Both the position numbers and the translations under genes were made by a program. The notes beneath the pieces were generated by a model. The model was given only the letters and a program-made list of their open reading frames with translations, had not been told where the DNA came from and made no database searches. From UHGV virus genome UHGV-0144373: a DNA stretch of 64,000 nucleotides, one strand, 5' to 3'. Each line of letters begins with the position of its first letter. Positions within the stretch are counted from its first letter, which is position 1. This document shows, piece by piece, positions 39,311 to 50,898 of the stretch. The DNA is from a virus.

Positions 39311-40192
39311 ATGAAAACATCTATCCGTGTTACAGTTCATTCACCGACTAAAGGGACTCACGAAGAAGAGTTTAACATTATCCAATTCCCTTCTGGTGAG
39401 ATTGGTGGACACTTTTCACAAGAGCTTGTTGATTTTACTGCTTATGCAGCATCATCCATCAACAACGTGGTTATGATTGTAAAGGGTTATGACAAAGACA
39501 CATTGTTTGCTGTTGCACTTGCTAAAGAAGCAATTGATGATTTAGTTCCTCATGATTATGCTCTGAAGACTGTCATTTTTTACTACTTGCCAAATGCACG
39601 ATATGACCGTCACATGTTTAAAGGCGACGCAGCAGCTTTAAAGGTTTTTGCTAAACAGATTAATGCAATGGGGTTTGGCGCAGTCTGTGCAGTTGACCCT
39701 CACAGCTATGTACCAGATAACCTGTTTAACTGCTTCCAGAGTATCCCTCAAAAGGAAATTGCAGTCCACTATGCAAATGACCCTCTGATTGATTACTTAG
39801 TAGCTCCAGATGCAGGTGCTTCTAAGAAGATTGCAGAGACTGCTAAAGAGGTAGATAAACCATACATCACAATGTCTAAAGTACGCAACCTCAAGACTGG
39901 TGAAATCACTGGTATGCGAATCCTTGATGATGTTGATTTGACAGATAAAACTGTCATGATTCTGGATGATATTTGTGATGGAGGCCGAACCTTCATAGAA
40001 GCAGCTAAACACCTCCGTAAAGCAGGTGCAAAACGTGTGGAACTATATGTAACACATGGTATCTTCTCTAAAGGTGTTGAAAACTTACTTGACAATGGTA
40101 TTGACCATATCTACACTACAAACTCTTTAGGCGAAGCTAAAGACCGTGGCTTAACACATTACGGCCAAGTTACTGTAGCAACCATTGATTGA
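39311..40192 (+). CDS. prs: ribose-phosphate pyrophosphokinase-like protein (Prs family; possibly an ADPR pyrophosphokinase of a NAD+ reconstitution pathway)
   Basis: Type I PRT motif MILDDICDGGRT and overall Prs-like length (293 aa). Confidence 0.75.
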   Translation: MKTSIRVTVHSPTKGTHEEEFNIIQFPSGEIGGHFSQELVDFTAYAASSINNVVMIVKGYDKDTLFAVALAKEAIDDLVPHDYALKTVIFYYLPNARYDRHMFKGDAAALKVFAKQINAMGFGAVCAVDPHSYVPDNLFNCFQSIPQKEIAVHYANDPLIDYLVAPDAGASKKIAETAKEVDKPYITMSKVRNLKTGEITGMRILDDVDLTDKTVMILDDICDGGRTFIEAAKHLRKAGAKRVELYVTHGIFSKGVENLLDNGIDHIYTTNSLGEAKDRGLTHYGQVTVATID

Positions 40193-40201
40193 AACTTTAT
40201 A

Positions 40202-40223
40202 GGGGCTTAAAAGCCCCATTTTG
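40202..40223 (+). terminator. hairpin, possible weak terminator
   Basis: GGGGCTT-AAA-AGCCCC followed by ATTTT. Confidence 0.4.
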
Positions 40224-40237
40224 AGAGAGATTAAAAG

Positions 40238-42019
40238 ATGACTAAATCACTTTATGCAGTACCAGCAGGTCTTAATGCAGATGCTTACAAGGCATCACAT
40301 ATATATCAGTATCCAGATGCTACACAATATCTTATGTTGAACCTGACACCACGTAGTGATAAATGGTTTAACAGTCCTTTAGCAATTGACGGTGTAGTGG
40401 CTTTTGGTATTCAACGTTTTGTTAAAGATTACTTGATAGACCACTGGAATGCCACTTTCTTTGAACGTGATAAAAAAGAAGCAATTGACGAAATCTTAGA
40501 AGTCATGAATGGTGTTCTGGGTAAAGATGCTATCGGTCGAGAGCATTGGGAAGCACTTCACGACTTAGGCTATCTACCAGTTGAAGTATACGCTGTAGAA
40601 GAAGGTGCAGTTGTTCCTATGCGTGTCCCAATGATTGTCTTCCAGAACACTGTTTCAGGCTTCCATTGGGTAGCAGGGTATCTGGAAGATGCTTTCTCTG
40701 CTGAGATTTGGAAGGCTTGCACTATTGCAACTATTGCATTGCATTACAAACGCATCTGTAAGAAGTGGGCTGACCTTACTTGCGACAATGACTTACATTT
40801 ACCCTATCAGTGCCATGACTTTGCTATGCGTGGTATGTCCGGCTTTACTGATGACGCATTTAACGCTGTAGGTCACTTAACCAGCTTTAAAGGAACTGAT
40901 AGCTTCCCTGCTGTGTATACGGCTAAACGAATCTATGGACAGTCCTACCCAATCTCTGATATTGGTAGCTCTGTACCAGCCACTGAACACTCTGTGATGT
41001 GTGCAAACATTGCTTGGGAAGGTGGTAATGAATTGATTGAAGATGAAAGACGTTTTAAAGGTGAGTTACAAACCTTCCGTCGTTTCTTAACAGAAACTTA
41101 CCCAACTGGTATTGCAAGTATTGTTTCAGACACTTATAACTTCTGGAGAACTGTGTCAGAAATCTTACCAGCACTACGTAAAGAAATTATGGAACGTGAC
41201 GGTAAACTGGTAATTCGCCCTGACTCTGGAGACCCTGTACATATTGTCACAGGTTATAAAGCAATCCACTTAGAGTGTGCTAAAAAGGCTTATTATGAGC
41301 ACCTAAGCAAGCTGGAAGCCAGTGACACAATGCTGAATGCTGTTCTGAACATGAAGCTTGAAAACATCAGCTATGGTATTGCTGGATGGCTACTGTCAGA
41401 AGGATACGAAATGGTTGTTGATAGAGAAGACTTTGAAGTTGCTGATACAGTGATGTTGAAAAATGCTTATATGGTTGGTTCTGCAAACGTTATAACACGT
41501 CCTGTGGCTGAGATTGATGGAGCTATTAAGACACTGTACAACATCTTTGGAGGAACTATTAACTCTAAAGGGTTTAAGGTACTGGATGAGCATATCGGTC
41601 TTATCTATGGTGACTCTATCACACTGGAACGTGCAAACGAAATCCTGAAGCGTCTGTATGAAATGGGTTTTGCAAGCTCTAACGTAGTATTTGGTGTAGG
41701 CTCTTACACTTACCAGTACATGACTCGTGACACCTTTGCATTTGCTGTCAAAGCAACTCTTGCAAGCATTGGTGGTAAAGAGATTATGCTTGCAAAAGAC
41801 CCTAAAACAGATAGTGGTGTTAAGAAATCTGCTTTTGGCGGTGTAGCACCTATGTGGGATGGTGATAAGTTGAAAGCTGTAGATGGCTATGGATTCCAGA
41901 GCTTTGCAGATGCACTTGAACATCCAGCTTGTGCTTTACGTTTAGTCTTTAGTGACTCTGAGCAGTACGGTTACACATCTCTTGGTGATATTCGAAATAA
42001 TATTGACAAGCAGCTTTAA
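40238..42019 (+). CDS. nadV: nicotinamide phosphoribosyltransferase-like protein (Nampt/NadV family)
   Basis: GTDSFPA ... SVPATEHS matches the conserved Nampt GTD(T/S) ... S(V/I)PA(A/T)EHS region; 593 aa. Confidence 0.8.
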   Translation: MTKSLYAVPAGLNADAYKASHIYQYPDATQYLMLNLTPRSDKWFNSPLAIDGVVAFGIQRFVKDYLIDHWNATFFERDKKEAIDEILEVMNGVLGKDAIGREHWEALHDLGYLPVEVYAVEEGAVVPMRVPMIVFQNTVSGFHWVAGYLEDAFSAEIWKACTIATIALHYKRICKKWADLTCDNDLHLPYQCHDFAMRGMSGFTDDAFNAVGHLTSFKGTDSFPAVYTAKRIYGQSYPISDIGSSVPATEHSVMCANIAWEGGNELIEDERRFKGELQTFRRFLTETYPTGIASIVSDTYNFWRTVSEILPALRKEIMERDGKLVIRPDSGDPVHIVTGYKAIHLECAKKAYYEHLSKLEASDTMLNAVLNMKLENISYGIAGWLLSEGYEMVVDREDFEVADTVMLKNAYMVGSANVITRPVAEIDGAIKTLYNIFGGTINSKGFKVLDEHIGLIYGDSITLERANEILKRLYEMGFASSNVVFGVGSYTYQYMTRDTFAFAVKATLASIGGKEIMLAKDPKTDSGVKKSAFGGVAPMWDGDKLKAVDGYGFQSFADALEHPACALRLVFSDSEQYGYTSLGDIRNNIDKQL

Positions 42020-42594: not shown

Positions 42595-44961
42595 ATGCGC
42601 ATGGTAAACGACCACGCAGAAGTGCTTAAGAGTTCAACTTCTTTGGAGACATCTCAAGCACAGATTACAATGACACCTGAAATGTTCAGCCTTTTGAGTT
42701 CTGGTGTATACACATTTAAAGAGCGAGCAGTGATTCGTGAACTGTCATGTAATGCAGTGGATGCTCAGAAAGAAGCTGGAAAAGAGAACATCCCGTTCCA
42801 TGTGCATTTACCTACTCGATTTGAGCCTTACTTTGAAGTCCGTGACTTTGGAACTGGATTGACTCATGATAAAGTTATGAGTTTGTACCTAAACTACGGA
42901 GCTTCTACGAAGAATGACTCTAATGATTACATTGGTGCAATGGGTATCGGCTCAAAATCTCCATTTGCAATTGCTCAGTCATTCACAGTATCTAGCTATG
43001 TTGACGGTGTTGTTAATAAGTACTCTGTTTACCTTGAGAATGGTATCCCTCAAGTAACTAAGCTTACTACTAACCAAACAAATGAACCTAATGGTTTAGC
43101 TGTACGTGTGGCAGTTGCTGACCACCGTATTTCAAAGTTCTTTGAAGAGGCTGGTCACGTATACTCATACTTTGCTGTAAAACCAGAAAGTAACATTGTA
43201 TATGATGACGTGTTAGCAGATATGAACGTCATTGCCCGTGAAGAAGGTGTTTATGATGCTATGATTCATAAGCAAAGCTGGCGTTCTAGTGGCAACAGGA
43301 CAGATTTTAATGTGGTAATGGGTAATATTGCCTACCCAGTTAATATGGAAGCATTACTTGGCGATGATTTCTTCAAAGTCTTGCCAGAATTTTTCCGTAG
43401 GAGCGTAGACCTTGTAAACATTTACATGCCTATTGGTTCAGTGGCTATTGCAGCTTCTCGTGAAGCATTGCAGATGAATGATACGACAAAAAATGTTATT
43501 ATCGAGGCCACCAAAAAGATAACTGGAGCAATTACAAAGGATGTTATCAAGAAAGTTAATAGTCAACCTACACTCATGGATGCTGCACAGGCTTATGCTG
43601 AGTTACGTTTGAACTCACGAGAGATGTTTAATGCTGTGTGTCCAAAGCTGGAGTGGGGTGGTGTTAAGCTTGATTCTCTGGAAGAAGAATTACTAAACAT
43701 TCGTCGTGGGATTATCTACGCAGAAGACGGCTCAGTCATTTATGAACGTGACGGCAAAGGTAATATTAAGGTTGATAGGAACGGGAACAATATCCCTAAA
43801 GTAGATTATCTTTATAATCCAGTTGCTTATGTCAAGTTCAACTCTTTAGAGAGTAAGATTCGTGCAACAGCACTTTCCTACACTCAAGAGGCAAGTATGT
43901 TCAATATCTTTGGTGCAATGCGTAAAAGCCAAATTGAACAGTTTTTGTTCGTGATTAATGACCGTCGCAATAAAAATGGCACTGAGAAGACTGTAGGCCG
44001 CAATCAGATTCTGCGTGGTGCATGTCGAGATTACGCCAATGAGTCAAGTCTGTTTCACAGATACAATGGTATTGTGTTTGTATTCTCGACTGAAAAAGAG
44101 TTAGATGATTTAATCAACCTGCATAAACTTGATAAAAGCTTGTTAAAGATTGTGAAAATGTCTGATAAGGAACACCATTACCAGCGTAAAGAAGCTGTCA
44201 GGGGTGTTGTAAAACTCTGGAAAGCTGTTCCAGCAGAAGGTGTAGCCTCATACACAGAGGTGTCAGAAGACTTTGATACAATTGAAGAACCTCAGCTTTA
44301 CATTAAGGCAGTTGGTGATACAGTTGATGGCGAATGTTTTTGCTCATCTCCAGAAGATGTAGCTAAGTCAGTTGCTAATGTTACAGGGAAGACAGTCTAT
44401 GTTTTCCGAAAAGCAAATTGGAAAAAGATACCAGAAGACTGGATTGAAGTAGATGAGAAGCTCTTGAACGACAGTTTAACTGATGTTCACTGGATTAATC
44501 ATAACAGGTATATGACACGCATCTGTATGCGTGGTGTCCTTAACCTTACAAGCTGTTGGATTATTACCAGAAACTTTACGTTCAATAACAGGAAGATTTC
44601 TGATGGTTATTGCTATTCACGGGACACAAACAAAACTATCTTCCTAGAAGGTAATGAAGATGCTGTTGAGGCAATGTTCGGTAAAATCCAATACGTTGCT
44701 GCACAATTTGCATACACTTACACTATTAGTGTGTTGCAAGATTTGAAAAGGTGTCTTGACAATGATACAAAGCTTTATAAGAAAATTAAGAAAGCTGGTG
44801 ACCGTATGTTTATTAAGGTGACAAACTACTTCTCAAAAAGAAAACAAGAAAACTTCTTGCTTTCTCATTTAGATTGGAATAAAGTGTCACCCATTGAAGT
44901 GAGTAAGTTCTTGGGCTTTGATGTGAAGTGTGTTCCAGAAGGGACTACAATTTACGATTAA
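42595..44961 (+). CDS. rIIA: rIIA-like protein (GHKL ATPase fold)
   Basis: N-terminal GHKL boxes (ELSCNAVDA, VRDFGTGL, GAMGIGSKS), 788 aa, immediately upstream of an rIIB-like gene. Confidence 0.65.
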   Translation: MRMVNDHAEVLKSSTSLETSQAQITMTPEMFSLLSSGVYTFKERAVIRELSCNAVDAQKEAGKENIPFHVHLPTRFEPYFEVRDFGTGLTHDKVMSLYLNYGASTKNDSNDYIGAMGIGSKSPFAIAQSFTVSSYVDGVVNKYSVYLENGIPQVTKLTTNQTNEPNGLAVRVAVADHRISKFFEEAGHVYSYFAVKPESNIVYDDVLADMNVIAREEGVYDAMIHKQSWRSSGNRTDFNVVMGNIAYPVNMEALLGDDFFKVLPEFFRRSVDLVNIYMPIGSVAIAASREALQMNDTTKNVIIEATKKITGAITKDVIKKVNSQPTLMDAAQAYAELRLNSREMFNAVCPKLEWGGVKLDSLEEELLNIRRGIIYAEDGSVIYERDGKGNIKVDRNGNNIPKVDYLYNPVAYVKFNSLESKIRATALSYTQEASMFNIFGAMRKSQIEQFLFVINDRRNKNGTEKTVGRNQILRGACRDYANESSLFHRYNGIVFVFSTEKELDDLINLHKLDKSLLKIVKMSDKEHHYQRKEAVRGVVKLWKAVPAEGVASYTEVSEDFDTIEEPQLYIKAVGDTVDGECFCSSPEDVAKSVANVTGKTVYVFRKANWKKIPEDWIEVDEKLLNDSLTDVHWINHNRYMTRICMRGVLNLTSCWIITRNFTFNNRKISDGYCYSRDTNKTIFLEGNEDAVEAMFGKIQYVAAQFAYTYTISVLQDLKRCLDNDTKLYKKIKKAGDRMFIKVTNYFSKRKQENFLLSHLDWNKVSPIEVSKFLGFDVKCVPEGTTIYD

Positions 44962-45040: not shown

Positions 45041-46150
45041 ATGACTACTAAAACTAAAGCACAGATTGACGCAGAAATTTACAAACTGGTTAAAGAAGGT
45101 AAGCTTACTAAAACAGCTATTGCACAGAAGTTCAATACTTCAACCCGTTCAGTTGGTCGTGCTGTAGAGCGTCATGAAGCAACCTTAAAAGGTAAGAAAA
45201 AGGTAGCTTCTAAACCAGCTACGAAGACTTTGAAGCAAGTTGCTAAGTCAGTTAAAAAGAAAGCTGGAAAACCAGTTGAAAAGGTTGTTAAAGAGGTTGT
45301 ACAAAAGGCTCCGGTAAATAAACTACACGAAGCTATGCAGAATGGCAACCAGATTGAGTACATGATTACTGGTGACTCTGTTATCATGACTTTCGGTGCA
45401 GATTCTGAAATAGTTGAATCTACCCATCCGAACTACAAAGAAATCGTGATGGCTGTTGTATCCGGTGAGTTTAAGAAAGCCTTTGAACTGATGAACATTC
45501 GTAAGTCTATCGAAAACTTCACTCAGGGTGCTATCACAATCAAGGGTGACAAACTATTCTACGGTGCTGTTGAGATGCGTTCTACTCTGGTTGACCGTAT
45601 TCTTCACATGATGAAGACTGGAGATAAAGGTTTTGAACGCCTTGTAATGTTCTTTGAAAAACTGATGGAAAACCCATCTAAAGATTCTGTAGAACAACTT
45701 TGGGGCTTCGTATCCCACCTTGATGTTGAAATTGATGAAGAAGGTTACATCATTGGTTGGAAGAAAGTCTCTACTCGTGAAGGTAAGCTGGTTGACTCCC
45801 ACACCTACAGAGTACCTAATGATTTAGGTAACATTGTAGAAATGCCACGTTGGATGGTTGATAATAACCGTAACGTGACTTGCTCACAAGGTCTTCACGT
45901 TGGTGCTTGGGATTATGTTCGTTGCTTCTCAGGTGATACAATTCTGAAGGTTCGTGTCCATCCACGAGATGTTGTATCTGTTCCAACTGATTACAACGAT
46001 ATGAAGATGCGTTCATCACGTTATGAAGTTGCAGCAATCGTTGACAATCAACGTAAAGTGCTGAAAGCATGGGATGGCAAGACTGAAGCTTTGCATGTCA
46101 TCGTTGGTACTGCTGGCGAACTTATTTCTCAGCGTAAACGTGAAATCTAA
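45041..46150 (+). CDS. rIIB: rIIB-like protein
   Basis: C-terminal segment LKVRVHPRDVVSVPTDYNDMKMRSSRYEV closely resembles the conserved C-terminus of T4 rIIB as recalled from memory; position after rIIA. Confidence 0.7.
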   Translation: MTTKTKAQIDAEIYKLVKEGKLTKTAIAQKFNTSTRSVGRAVERHEATLKGKKKVASKPATKTLKQVAKSVKKKAGKPVEKVVKEVVQKAPVNKLHEAMQNGNQIEYMITGDSVIMTFGADSEIVESTHPNYKEIVMAVVSGEFKKAFELMNIRKSIENFTQGAITIKGDKLFYGAVEMRSTLVDRILHMMKTGDKGFERLVMFFEKLMENPSKDSVEQLWGFVSHLDVEIDEEGYIIGWKKVSTREGKLVDSHTYRVPNDLGNIVEMPRWMVDNNRNVTCSQGLHVGAWDYVRCFSGDTILKVRVHPRDVVSVPTDYNDMKMRSSRYEVAAIVDNQRKVLKAWDGKTEALHVIVGTAGELISQRKREI

Positions 46151-46250: not shown

Positions 46251-46799
46251 ATGAAGAAATTGATTCTAGGTTTGTGCTTAATGTTTACAGCACACTTATC
46301 TTATGCAGTTGACTGCCCAGAGCTATCAATTAGCCAAAAAGTAAACATGTTAAAAGCTTACCAGTATGGCGAGAATAACATGGGTAAAGGTTGGGGTATC
46401 ACTCTAGCTGCTATAGCCTTACAAGAGTCAGAGTTAGGTCTGAAGGTAGAGAATAAAAAGACACATGATTATGGTATTTTCCAGAACCACTTGAAGACTG
46501 TTGTAAAGCGTAACAAAATCAGTCCTAATGTGGCTAAAAAGAAACTCTTAAAAGATTTTGACTATGCTGCAAAGGAAACTCACAAAGAGCTTGAATTTTG
46601 GACTAAGGTACACGGTCAACCAAAGTCAAAGAAGACTTTACAAAAAGTTTTAGCATCATATAATGCTGGGTATTCGTACAAAATCCCTAAAGCTAAGAAA
46701 TATTCTCAAGATGTCTATAACAACATGAAAGTCATTGCTCAATGTGAATTTGCAACAAACATTTCTAAGGTAAACCATGAAAAAATTAAAAAAGTCTGA
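46251..46799 (+). CDS. lytic transglycosylase (SLT domain) with signal peptide
   Basis: N-terminal MKKLILGLCLMFTAHLSYA signal peptide; SLT motifs ALQESEL, DYGIFQ and YNAGYSY. Confidence 0.6.
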   Translation: MKKLILGLCLMFTAHLSYAVDCPELSISQKVNMLKAYQYGENNMGKGWGITLAAIALQESELGLKVENKKTHDYGIFQNHLKTVVKRNKISPNVAKKKLLKDFDYAAKETHKELEFWTKVHGQPKSKKTLQKVLASYNAGYSYKIPKAKKYSQDVYNNMKVIAQCEFATNISKVNHEKIKKV

Positions 46800-47472
46800 T
46801 GAAGTACTGTGTCATGCTTACGACTTACATCCTCATGAGTTAGGTCTTGATTCCTGTGTATGGACTCCAGAACAGTGTAGGGATTTTGAAGACACTGCAA
46901 GAGAAGTTGTATGTTCACTCGAAGAGTTCCACACATCAGAGCCAATTGTGAATGTTGTAGATAAAGAGACTGGACAAACTATAGGTGTAAGTCATGATAG
47001 CTTAGTCATAGTCAATAAAGACCTTGTAGAAAAAGGTAACCTCATCTTAGCAGATATTGATGGTGTTCTTACAAATTTTAATCACGAAGATTACTCAACG
47101 GAATTGACTGATGGTTCATTCTCACAGTATACCAATCTTCTTGATTCTGTAAGAGCAAAGCCAACGTATGTTTTCAATATCATTGATGCAATTGCTAATC
47201 ATGCTGCCATTGGACTCTTGACAGCGAGAGGTGAATCTCAGAGAATACCTACTGAGATGTTTTTAAGGCATAACACAGAGCATGACTACATGCTCTTTAT
47301 GCGTGGTTTTGGGACTAACTCTATAAGTGCAGAAAGTTTGAAAGTGAGGATGATTCAGTCTTGCATTCTGCCTTACTTTAATATAGTATGTTTTATAGAA
47401 GACACAGAGAAGAATGTGCAGAAGGTGAACAGAATCCTTCCACACATCAAAACCATGTTAGTTAAACATTGA
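46777..47472 (+). CDS. putative HAD-family phosphatase
   Basis: LILADIDGVLT resembles HAD motif I (hhhDxDGxL); weak. Confidence 0.3.
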   Translation: MKKLKKSDEVLCHAYDLHPHELGLDSCVWTPEQCRDFEDTAREVVCSLEEFHTSEPIVNVVDKETGQTIGVSHDSLVIVNKDLVEKGNLILADIDGVLTNFNHEDYSTELTDGSFSQYTNLLDSVRAKPTYVFNIIDAIANHAAIGLLTARGESQRIPTEMFLRHNTEHDYMLFMRGFGTNSISAESLKVRMIQSCILPYFNIVCFIEDTEKNVQKVNRILPHIKTMLVKH

Positions 47473-49319: not shown

Positions 49320-49520
49320 ATGGCTGACTTCTGCAAAGACTGTTCTATCGAAATGTTCGGACGTGATACAGGTGACTTAAAAGGTCTTATCACTGAAGAT
49401 GACTTTAAAGCTGGCTATGCAATGCCAGTAATCTGTGAAGGTTGTGGGTGCATCTGGGTAGACCACGAAGGACAGCGTGTAAAACCTTCAGAAGATAAAG
49501 AATCTTGGGAGAGATGTTAA
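49320..49520 (+). CDS. small zinc-ribbon protein
   Basis: CKDC ... CEGCGC cysteine pairs. Confidence 0.4.
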   Translation: MADFCKDCSIEMFGRDTGDLKGLITEDDFKAGYAMPVICEGCGCIWVDHEGQRVKPSEDKESWERC

Positions 49521-50306
49521 ATGGGTATTGTAAAAATAATCAATGGTGATATCTTTGCCGCATTTGATAAAGGTAAGTTTGACATCATCGGTCACGGTTG
49601 CAACTGTATGAATTTAATGGGTGCAGGTATTGCAGCAACTATTTCTAAGCGTTATCCAAAAGTGTATGATACTGACACAGAAGTTTACCTGTTTGCAGGC
49701 GGCATCCGTCACAAACCCTGTGAAAATTTACTGGGTAATTTCTCCGTAGCACGTTTAAAACAAGGCCGTATAGCTAACCTTTACACCCAACTTCATACTG
49801 GTAAAGATGCCCGATACAGTGCTTTAGAGTCATCTTTGAAACAGCTTAACAGATACTGTGAAGTTAACCAGTTGAAGAAAGTTGGTCTACCTATGATTGG
49901 TGCAGGTATTGGTGGACTCGACCCTCAAGCCGCCACAGTTATCATTAATCAGGTGATGAAAAGTGTAGATGTTTATCTGTATGTCTACGAAGGAGAGATG
50001 TACCACAAGTTACTCTCAGGTTGGAAGAACTACTGTGAACCAGAATACTTTGCAGGTGTAGTAACGTTCACAGATAATACAGTTACCCTCTTCAGACGAA
50101 GAAAAGGTAAGATACATCAAAGTAACCCTCCGGTTGAAAAGATGTCTCTAAGTAACGCTCTAGTTACCCACCTGTCGAAGAGCAATCACAGAATTGCTGT
50201 GACATTTGGTAGTGATGCCGATGCTTACATTTATGCAAGAACTGATGAGGATATCGAGGCAATCTTCTCTTCACCAGAAGTTACCTTCTTAGACGCAAAG
50301 AACTAA
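49521..50306 (+). CDS. macro-domain (ADP-ribose binding/processing) protein with C-terminal extension
   Basis: VKIINGDIF ... DIIGHGCNCMNLMGAGIAATI and VGLPMIGAGIGGLDPQAA align in pattern with YmdB/MacroD (GDIT ... IVNAAN ... GGGGVDGAIH and FPAISTGVYGYP). Confidence 0.6.
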   Translation: MGIVKIINGDIFAAFDKGKFDIIGHGCNCMNLMGAGIAATISKRYPKVYDTDTEVYLFAGGIRHKPCENLLGNFSVARLKQGRIANLYTQLHTGKDARYSALESSLKQLNRYCEVNQLKKVGLPMIGAGIGGLDPQAATVIINQVMKSVDVYLYVYEGEMYHKLLSGWKNYCEPEYFAGVVTFTDNTVTLFRRRKGKIHQSNPPVEKMSLSNALVTHLSKSNHRIAVTFGSDADAYIYARTDEDIEAIFSSPEVTFLDAKN

Positions 50307-50368
50307 GAAACTCTGTAGGATATTCACAATAGGCTAAGCCTTTCTTATCTGGTAAATTTTTCAGGTAA

Positions 50369-50560
50369 GGAGGGCTTTTTCATTTCAGATTTGTGCAGGT
50401 AGAGTTCTGTAGAGGAATCTATAGAGAAAATTTTGAACTCCAAAGAGCTTTTTCATTTTCAAACTGTGCAGGTAATCTCCAAAGAGCTTTTTCATTTTCA
50501 AAACGTGCAGAGAAAAATCAGGTCGGGCAAGAAAAATCATTTTAGAATTGTGCAGGTAGG
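50369..50560. repeat. four direct repeats of about 33 bp (iteron-like)
   Basis: Units at about 50369, 50440, 50478 and 50527 share GCTTTTTCATTTTCAAA(C/A)(T/C)GTGCAGGTA; a G-rich tract GGTAGGTGGGTGTAGGTGGGG follows. Confidence 0.8.
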
Positions 50561-50733
50561 TGGGTGTAGGTGGGGATGTCGCCATTTCTCACAAGGCTAC
50601 CACATCCGAAAAGAAAAGTCAACAGAAAAATTTGTAGCGGATTGAAAAATAATTCTTGATTTGTTTTCTGTTTTGTGGTATTCGCGTGCGCCCGTTTCAT
50701 TACATTTTGCCAAAAATATTTTTAAAATTTTTC

Positions 50734-50762
50734 TTGACTCCTCGAACGGGTTTTTATAGTAT
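50734..50762 (+). promoter_or_regulatory. sigma70-like promoter heading the small-gene cassette array
   Basis: TTGACT-N17-TAGTAT with an AT-rich UP-like tract upstream; same architecture and spacer (GGTTTTTA) as the type B promoters downstream. Confidence 0.5.
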
Positions 50763-50811
50763 TTGCATCAGACGGGGCGACAAGCTCCCTTCCTAAAATG
50801 GAAAGTCTAGA

Positions 50812-50870
50812 AAGTACTTTACAAGGGGCTTAAAAGTTGTTACCTTAAGCCCCAGATAAAGAGCTTTACC
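50812..50870 (+). promoter_or_regulatory. type A leader module copy 1
   Basis: AAGTACTTTACAA + hairpin GGGGCTTAA-(11 nt)-TTAAGCCCC + AGATAAAGAGCTTTACC, then the RBS. Confidence 0.6.
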
Positions 50871-50898
50871 AACAACCTTAAACTAGGAGAATATGAAA

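What the first reader, a model, noticed from the sequence alone, without database searches (positions are those of the whole stretch)
49521..50306. Macro-domain protein with an extra C-terminal region, near the NAD+/ADP-ribose genes
The first ~170 residues carry macro-domain hallmarks (NGDIF, GHGCNCMNLMGAGIA, PMIGAGIGG) and are followed by about 90 residues of unknown function. Macro domains bind or hydrolyse ADP-ribose, O-acetyl-ADP-ribose or ADP-ribosylated substrates. In a phage, a plausible role is reversing host ADP-ribosylation-based defence (for example DarT-type DNA ADP-ribosylation) or processing ADPR produced by NAD+-cleaving immunity.
Basis: partly seen in the sequence, partly recalled or inferred. 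Interest (0 to 1): 0.55.

Follow-up and report, generated by a model that had tools for sequence, protein, structure and literature searches.

The report
Phage anti-DarT macrodomain with orphan tail
This Felix O1-like phage gene encodes a common phage macrodomain enzyme, a relative of T4 Tk.4/AdfM that probably strips defensive ADP-ribose tags off phage DNA, fused to a roughly 100-residue extra domain of unknown role that resembles nothing known.

Summary

The window is a Felixounavirus. The macro domain is 40% identical to T4 Tk.4 and falls in the same PHROG (335) as T4 Tk.4 and PhiKZ gp104. Both have recently been shown to be AdfM, anti-DarTG2 factors.

The active-site Asn is kept (N28). The DarG/TARG1 catalytic Lys is Gln (Q90), as in T4 Tk.4.

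The link to the NAD+ salvage genes is weak. They lie 7.5 kb upstream, beyond rIIA and rIIB.

Verdict: a new variant of a known kind, of modest interest.

The parts
49507..49513 (+). Shine-Dalgarno-like GGGAGAG, 7 nt upstream of the ATG. The stop codon (TAA, 49518-49520) of the upstream 66-aa Cys-rich ORF abuts the ATG.
   Evidence: Read directly from the sequence; ORF list.
49521..50306 (+). Complete CDS, 261 aa: an AdfM/Tk.4-type macrodomain protein with a C-terminal extension.
   Evidence: PHROG 335 E=5e-112 over residues 1-260; full-length orthologues in 271 phage records, all Felix O1-like.
49521..49988 (+). Macro domain (residues 1-156) of the TARG1/DarG/Poa1p-like branch.
49602..49604 (+). 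Codon for Asn28. It aligns with the active-site Asn of DarG (N22) and PhiKZ AdfM (N23) and is invariant in the family.
   Evidence: Alignments A1 and A3; active-site residues are named in PMC13309987.
49788..49790 (+). Codon for Gln90 in the invariant NLYTQ motif. It occupies the position of the catalytic Lys of DarG (K80), PhiKZ AdfM (K78) and TARG1 (K84). T4 Tk.4 also has Gln here.
   Evidence: HMMER alignments to TARG1, MAFFT alignment A3, numbering check.
49890..49919 (+). Glycine-rich phosphate-binding loop PMIGAGIGGL (residues 124-133).
   Evidence: P124, G127, G129, I130, G132 and L133 are invariant in A1. The loop aligns with PPLGxGNGGL of DarG.
49989..50303 (+). C-terminal orphan domain (residues 157-261): a linker helix at 158-167, six beta strands between 179 and 238, and a helix at 242-250.
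50336..50387 (+). Terminator-like hairpin followed by a T-run, 30 nt after the stop codon. The macro gene is therefore the last gene of its transcription unit.
   Evidence: sequence.

Best explanation
The gene encodes an early-expressed, orphan-antitoxin-like counter-defence enzyme of the AdfM (T4 Tk.4) family. The N-terminal macro domain binds ADP-ribose attached by host DarT2-type toxins to thymidine in single-stranded phage DNA and hydrolyses the glycosidic link, which restores replication. This activity is inferred from homologues, not shown for this protein. Two active-site features are read from the sequence: the conserved Asn (N28) and the glycine-rich loop are present, and the DarG/TARG1 catalytic Lys is replaced by an invariant Gln (Q90), as in T4 Tk.4. 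Chemistry in this sub-clade therefore cannot be the Lys-dependent DarG/TARG1 mechanism in detail. The extra C-terminal domain of about 105 residues is a lineage-specific beta-rich module. It is under purifying selection but evolves about three times faster than the catalytic core. I infer that it is an accessory targeting or partner-binding module, for example binding the toxin, the phage replisome or single-stranded DNA. It is not a catalytic domain and it is not a homologue of DarG's toxin-binding domain.
For: Macro fold and family. Same PHROG (335) as T4 Tk.4 (E=1.3e-65) and PhiKZ gp104 (E=8.2e-43). BLASTP to T4 Tk.4 gives 40% identity, E=5e-24. Experimental function of homologues: deleting T4 tk.4 sensitises T4 to DarTG2, and PhiKZ AdfM removes DarT2 ADP-ribose from DNA and rescues DarT2 toxicity, with N23A reducing activity. 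N28 is conserved, and the NLYTQ motif is shared with T4 Tk.4. The gene sits in the early-type region downstream of rIIA/rIIB among small ORFs and ends its transcription unit. The C-domain is real: AF2 gives pLDDT about 76-91 in the full-length model with pTM 0.88; it is intact in 28 of 28 orthologues, with dN/dS 0.18 against 0.06 for the macro domain; it is conserved in syntenic distant phages (rIIB ... HAD_PNKP ... Macro); and it is found only fused to this macro core.
Against: No experiment exists for any Felixounavirus protein, and I found no paper linking these phages to DarTG. Identity to T4 Tk.4 is only 40%, and macro domains switch substrate easily. The catalytic Lys of DarG/PhiKZ AdfM is missing (Q90). 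For the Gln-type sub-clade only genetics exists (T4), with no biochemistry. The best sequence hits in the PDB are TARG1, a protein/OAADPr hydrolase, rather than DarG. The role proposed for the C-domain rests on no direct evidence. Its net charge is near neutral (pI about 6, variable in relatives), so neither DNA binding nor DNA mimicry is indicated.
Confidence: 0.55

Rival explanations
1. The protein is a small-molecule ADP-ribose-derivative hydrolase, either a Poa1p-like ADP-ribose-1''-phosphate phosphatase or an O-acetyl-ADP-ribose deacetylase. It would serve phage NAD+/nucleotide metabolism or RNA-repair by-product clearance rather than DNA de-ADP-ribosylation.
Against: The database names are transferred annotations, not tested functions. 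The only experimentally studied members of the same PHROG act against DarTG2. The NAD+ genes are 7.5 kb away, beyond rIIA and rIIB. No KptA/Tpt1, 2H or RNA ligase gene was found among the neighbours scanned.
Confidence: 0.15
2. The protein is a macrodomain eraser aimed at a different ADP-ribosylated macromolecule, with the C-terminal domain providing the new substrate or partner specificity. Candidate targets are protein ADP-ribosylation, RNA ADP-ribosylation by host toxins, or the phage's own regulation.
For: The closest solved sequences are TARG1/OARD1, which is a protein-Glu-ADPr and OAADPr hydrolase (E=2.3e-12 with the profile). The DarG-type catalytic Lys is absent. The extra fast-evolving domain is absent from the two characterised AdfMs, which are 155 and 162 aa, and is what would be expected of a specificity module.
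Against: TARG1's catalytic dyad K84/D125 is not conserved either, being Q90/G131. T4 Tk.4 shares the same Gln motif and still works against DarTG2. No ART gene or other contextual clue was found in the neighbourhood.
Confidence: 0.15
3. The protein is a non-catalytic ADP-ribose binder. It would act as a reader or sponge that shields or sequesters ADP-ribosylated DNA or ADPr-derived signals, having lost the catalytic Lys.
For: The K-to-Q replacement at the DarG K80 / TARG1 K84 position is invariant in the family. Many macro domains are binders only (general knowledge).
Against: The active-site Asn and the glycine-rich loops are strictly conserved, with very low dN/dS of 0.06. T4 Tk.4 carries the same Gln and gives full resistance to DarTG2. 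Stoichiometric shielding of DNA lesions by an early protein seems inefficient; this last point is my inference.
Confidence: 0.07

Closest known systems
T4 Tk.4 = AdfM (anti-DarT factor Macrodomain; bioRxiv 10.1101/2025.11.20.689424)
   Same: Same PHROG (335). 40% identity over the macro core (E=5e-24). Same HGCNC, MGxG, NLYTQ and IGAGIG motifs, including Gln in place of the DarG catalytic Lys. Both are phage early-region orphan genes.
   Different: Tk.4 is a bare macro domain of 155 aa. The window protein carries an extra C-terminal domain of about 105 residues. The host phage lineage also differs: Ounavirinae (my assignment of Felix O1-like phages, not shown by a tool) versus Tevenvirinae. 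The anti-DarTG2 role has been shown only for T4.
PhiKZ gp104 AdfM (Cell Rep 2026, PMC13309987)
   Same: A phage macrodomain in the same PHROG 335, with a conserved active-site Asn (N23 = N28 here). Its biochemically proven activity, removal of DarT2 ADP-ribose from DNA, is the one proposed here.
   Different: gp104 is much closer to bacterial DarG (E=9e-25 to 5m3i) and keeps the catalytic Lys (K78). It has no C-terminal domain and is imported into the phage nucleus. Identity to the window protein is about 21%.
Bacterial DarG (DarTG2 antitoxin; NCBIfam NF048014, PADLOC DarG)
   Different: The C-terminal domains are unrelated. DarG's is about 190 residues; by my reading of the sequence alignment (no structure was computed) it looks mainly helical. 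The phage domain is about 105 residues and beta-rich, and hhalign gives probability 0.25%. There is no adjacent DarT (DUF4433) gene. The catalytic Lys is replaced by Gln. The score of 49.7 bits is far below the equivalog cut-off of 250.
Human TARG1/OARD1 (C6orf130; PDB 4j5r, 2eee)
   Different: The catalytic K84 and D125 correspond to Q90 and G131 here. TARG1 is a eukaryotic protein/OAADPr hydrolase and a single domain.
Yeast Poa1p (ADP-ribose 1''-phosphate phosphatase; PDB 6lfq/6lfu)
   Different: Only the N-terminal third aligns at sequence level. Nothing in the context indicates tRNA-splicing or RNA-repair by-product metabolism.

Membership tests
Macro domain superfamily (Pfam PF01661) | Significant match to the family profile above the curated threshold | tested here: met
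   E=7.7e-8, 32.7 bits against a gathering score of 22, residues 25-141.
Macro domain superfamily (Pfam PF01661) | Macro fold (three-layer alpha/beta/alpha with a mixed sheet) | tested here: met
AdfM (phage anti-DarT2 macrodomain) | Phage-encoded stand-alone macro protein homologous to the characterised AdfMs (T4 Tk.4, PhiKZ gp104) | tested here: met
   All three fall in PHROG 335. Identity to Tk.4 is 40%, E=5e-24. No DarT gene is adjacent.
AdfM (phage anti-DarT2 macrodomain) | Conserved active-site Asn (PhiKZ N23 / DarG N22) | tested here: met
   N28 aligns with it and is invariant in 20 of 20 family members.
AdfM (phage anti-DarT2 macrodomain) | Active-site Lys (PhiKZ K78 / DarG K80) | tested here: not met
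   Gln90 occupies this position and is invariant. T4 Tk.4, itself an AdfM by genetics, also has Gln, so this feature does not define the whole family.
AdfM (phage anti-DarT2 macrodomain) | Removes DarT2-installed ADP-ribose from ssDNA and confers resistance to DarTG2 | not testable with these tools
   This needs in vitro de-ADP-ribosylation and plaque assays. It has been shown only for homologues.
DarG antitoxin (type II TA, NF048014) | Full-length match including the C-terminal DarT-binding domain | tested here: not met
   The HMM match covers only model positions 4-150 of 338, with 49.7 bits against a cut-off of 250. hhalign of the C-domain profile against the DarG C-domain profile gives probability 0.25%.
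DarG antitoxin (type II TA, NF048014) | Encoded next to a DarT (DUF4433) toxin gene | tested here: not met
   Bona fide DarG loci have DUF4433 immediately upstream. Here the neighbours are small phage ORFs with no Pfam hit.
TARG1/OARD1-type hydrolase | Catalytic Lys84 and Asp125 | tested here: not met
   These positions align to Q90 and G131.
Poa1p-like ADP-ribose-1''-phosphate phosphatase (the 'phosphatase' label of PHROG 335) | Appr1p phosphatase activity | not testable with these tools

The most novel reading that the evidence does not exclude
The orphan C-terminal domain is a new-fold module that gives the phage macrodomain a second, non-enzymatic mode of action. It would directly bind and neutralise DarT2-type toxins, or dock the enzyme onto the replisome or ssDNA. 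This would be analogous to, but evolved independently of, DarG's toxin-binding domain. Its faster evolution would then reflect an arms race with variable host toxins. In addition, the invariant Gln in place of the DarG/TARG1 catalytic Lys would mean that the Tk.4-type clade removes ADP-ribose from DNA by a Lys-independent mechanism not yet described.
Probability: 0.2. Interest if true: 0.6.

Novelty: new variant of a known kind. Interest (0 to 1): 0.35.

Why it matters
Phage macrodomains are very common: about 41% of myoviruses carry one (PMC9503650), and tblastn found relatives in 2,798 phage records. Until 2025-26 they had no demonstrated role. This gene extends the newly defined AdfM anti-DarTG2 family to Felix O1-like phages, which are used for Salmonella and E. 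coli typing, biocontrol and therapy, so it bears on predicting host range against DarTG-carrying strains. Two features go beyond the published AdfMs. One is a conserved, fast-evolving C-terminal domain with no detectable relatives. The other is a Gln at the catalytic-Lys position, shared with T4 Tk.4. Both are cheap to test and could reveal a second neutralisation mode or a variant hydrolytic mechanism. Otherwise the finding is an ordinary member of a widespread, already annotated phage gene family.

Tried and rejected
1. C-domain as a DarG-like DarT-binding domain. I fetched four bona fide DarT-DarG loci from plasmids, aligned their C-domains and ran hhalign against the phage C-domain profile. 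Probability was 0.25%. Rejected.

2. C-domain as cREC/REC, as in the metagenomic Tk.4-like fusion P0028. hhalign probability was 0.06%. Rejected.

3. Pfam scans of the C-domain alone, and of all 15 aligned C-domains at E<=10, gave no consistent family.

5. A profile search of 1.84 billion representatives returned only macro-fusion relatives and fragments. The long hits (P0037, P0038, P0040, P0041, P0043) are repeat-rich proteins, beta-propellers among them. I attribute their hits to summed scores over repeated segments and treat them as artefacts.

6. No paralogue of the C-domain was found elsewhere in the window.

7. The upstream Cys-rich 66-aa ORF as a conserved partner: it is not conserved in distant syntenic relatives.

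8. A search with the DarG macro domain to retrieve full-length DarG returned only short macro proteins in its top 120, so it did not serve that purpose.

9. Literature searches for a Felixounavirus, Bas63 or Felix O1 link to DarTG or macrodomains found nothing relevant.

10. Rfam on the downstream intergenic repeats gave no match.

11. The internal AAGGAG + ATG at M160 as a separate start for the C-domain: the spacing is only 2 nt and the Met is not conserved in the second subgroup, so I consider it unlikely.

Full report
**Observation.** Window 49521..50306 (+) is an intact ATG-to-TAA ORF of 261 aa. A GGGAGAG ribosome-binding site lies 7 nt upstream. The ATG abuts the stop codon of a 66-aa Cys-rich ORF. 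A terminator-like hairpin with a T-run follows 30 nt after the stop (50336-50387), so this is the last gene of its transcription unit.

**Genome and context.** The window is a Felix O1-like phage (Felixounavirus). It is 92-94% identical in DNA to Salmonella phage Meda, Escherichia phages REP5-7, warpig and many others. The order on the + strand is:
- PRS-like gene, 39311..40192
- NAMPT, 40238..42019 (Pfam)
- rIIA, 42595..44961
- rIIB, 45041..46150
- an SLT-like gene
- a HAD-type gene annotated 'polynucleotide kinase', 46777..47472
- eight small ORFs without Pfam hits
- the macro gene

The NAD+ salvage genes are therefore real, but they lie 7.5 kb away and are not in a tight cluster with the macro gene.

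**The N-terminal domain is a macro domain.**
- Pfam Macro: E=7.7e-8, 32.7 bits against a cut-off of 22.
- NCBIfam DarG E=3e-13 and PADLOC DarG E=2e-13, both restricted to the macro part.
- The AF2 model built on a 20-sequence family alignment is confident (pLDDT 90.6, pTM 0.88).
- By sequence, TARG1 is the closest solved protein (E=2.3e-12 with the family profile), followed by DarG at 1.8e-8.

**It is a homologue of the recently characterised AdfM proteins.**
- tblastn finds relatives of residues 1-160 in 2,798 phage records, among them T4 tk.4.
- BLASTP to T4 Tk.4 gives 40% identity, E=5e-24.
- The window protein, T4 Tk.4 and PhiKZ gp104 all fall in PHROG 335, labelled 'phosphatase'.
- A 2025 preprint (10.1101/2025.11.20.689424) found tk.4 as the single T4 gene conditionally required on a DarTG2 host. 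It confirmed this with a clean knockout and named the gene adfM.
- A 2026 Cell Reports paper (PMC13309987) showed that PhiKZ gp104 removes DarT2-installed ADP-ribose from a DNA oligonucleotide, that N23A reduces this activity, and that the protein rescues DarT2 toxicity.

No paper I could find addresses Felix O1-like phages.

**Active site.** In alignments of the window protein with T4 Tk.4, PhiKZ gp104, two DarG macrodomains and TARG1, Asn28 aligns with DarG N22 and PhiKZ N23 and is invariant in the family. The glycine-rich loop PMIGAGIGGL aligns with PPLGxGNGGL of DarG. The catalytic Lys differs. DarG K80, PhiKZ K78 (named as active-site residues in PMC13309987) and TARG1 K84 (numbering checked) correspond to an invariant Gln90 within the motif NLYTQ. 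T4 Tk.4 has the same NLYTQ. TARG1 D125 corresponds to Gly131. The Tk.4-type sub-clade therefore lacks the Lys on which, to my knowledge of the DarG and TARG1 literature, hydrolysis depends, yet T4 Tk.4 is functional genetically. The mechanism in this sub-clade has not been shown biochemically.

**The C-terminal region is a real domain.**
- Residues 157-261 are present in full-length form in 271 phage records, all Felix O1-like.
- More distant proteins of 246-264 aa have the same architecture. Their contigs show the same synteny, rIIB ... HAD_PNKP ... Macro.
- In 28 orthologous genes (the window plus 27 IMG/VR loci) the ORF is intact throughout. Nei-Gojobori dN/dS is 0.06 for the macro domain and 0.18 for the C-domain. 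For more divergent pairs the values are 0.17 and 0.42, with dS saturating.
- Amino-acid identity falls much faster in the C-domain: for example 78% against 54%, and 42% against 19%.
- AF2 predicts a linker helix (158-167), six beta strands (179-238) and a helix (242-250). pLDDT is about 76-91 in the full-length model and 77.5 when the domain is modelled alone.

**The C-terminal domain has no detectable relatives.**
- There is no Pfam hit for it, nor for any of 15 aligned homologues.
- A profile search of 1.84 billion representative proteins returned only macro-fusion family members and fragments. It also returned a few repeat-rich proteins, beta-propellers among them, whose multi-segment hits I treat as repeat artefacts.
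- Foldseek against BFVD returned only the orthologue of phage SUSP2.
- No paralogue exists in the window.
- It is not related to the DarT-binding C-terminal domain of DarG. I retrieved four DarT(DUF4433)-DarG loci and aligned their roughly 190-residue C-domains. hhalign gave probability 0.25%.
- It is not the cREC domain found fused to a Tk.4-like macro domain in a metagenomic protein.
- Net charge is near neutral and varies among relatives, so neither DNA binding nor DNA mimicry is suggested.
- The Erwinia phiEa21-4-type protein P0020 has a longer tail that aligns only weakly (hhalign E=0.024).

**Interpretation.** The best-supported explanation (confidence about 0.55) is an early, orphan-antitoxin-like counter-defence enzyme of the AdfM family. 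It would remove DarT2-type ADP-ribose from phage ssDNA and carry a lineage-specific accessory domain. What is shown here is the macro fold, membership of the Tk.4/AdfM homology group, conservation of Asn28 and the Gly-rich loop, the K-to-Q change, and the reality, restriction and faster evolution of the C-domain. What is inferred is the substrate (DarT2-modified DNA) and any role of the C-domain in targeting or partner binding.

The rivals are:
- a small-molecule Appr1p/OAADPr hydrolase (0.15)
- an eraser for another ADP-ribosylated macromolecule, with the C-domain as specificity module (0.15)
- a non-catalytic binder (0.07)

**Novelty and interest.** The protein is already annotated in hundreds of phage genomes as 'macro domain-containing protein', 'phosphatase' or 'O-acetyl-ADP-ribose deacetylase', and the function of the family has just been published. 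What is not described is the two-domain architecture with an orphan, possibly new-fold C-domain, and the Gln-for-Lys active site shared with T4 Tk.4. I rate it a new variant of a known kind, with interest 0.35.

Noticed in passing
window 50354-50558 (within the 586-bp non-coding gap 50307-50892): There are four imperfect direct repeats of about 34-48 nt with the core CTTTTTCATTT...TGTGCAGGTA. The first overlaps the 3' arm and T-run of the terminator-like hairpin. TGTGCAGGTA occurs three times here and nowhere else in the 64 kb. There is no Rfam match. They could be a regulatory or promoter array ahead of the next gene block.
   Followed up: partly
window 49320-49520 (+): A 66-aa Cys-rich ORF (CxxC ... 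CxxCxC, zinc-ribbon-like) has its TAA directly abutting the macro ATG, which suggests translational coupling. It is identical in phage pEP20 but has no clear homologue upstream of the macro gene in distant syntenic relatives.
   Followed up: partly
window 49990-50000: AAGGAG followed by the ATG of Met160 lies exactly at the macro/C-domain boundary. The spacing is only 2 nt and the Met is not conserved in the second subgroup, so separate translation of the C-domain seems unlikely, but it was not excluded.
   Followed up: no
window 39311-42019 (+): A PRS-like phosphoribosyl-pyrophosphate synthetase gene and a 593-aa NAMPT sit side by side. They form an NAD+ salvage pair typical of Felix O1-like phages, upstream of rIIA/rIIB. 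They may matter for countering NAD+-depleting defences independently of the macro gene.
   Followed up: partly
window 46777-47472 (+); L003 5675-6361; L004 5565-6227: A HAD-type phosphatase gene with a DIDGVL motif is annotated 'polynucleotide kinase' in relatives and gives weak or faint HAD_PNKP hits. It is conserved in synteny about 2 kb upstream of the macro gene across distant relatives. A functional link (RNA or DNA end repair) was not tested.
   Followed up: no
protein P0028 (metagenomic, 339 aa): A Tk.4-type macro domain (NLYTQ motif) is fused to a cREC_REC cyclic-phosphate-processing domain. P0027 carries an N-terminal extension that I read by eye as GIY-YIG-like (not scanned). The Tk.4-type macro core has therefore acquired different accessory domains more than once.
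   Followed up: partly
one search hit list (bacterial and metagenomic proteins P0044-P0163): More than 5,000 proteins match the M. tuberculosis DarG macro domain at E<=1e-10. The best 120 are all short (139-248 aa), that is, without the full DarG C-terminal domain. Some may be truncated gene calls, but many look like stand-alone DarG-like macro proteins.
   Followed up: no
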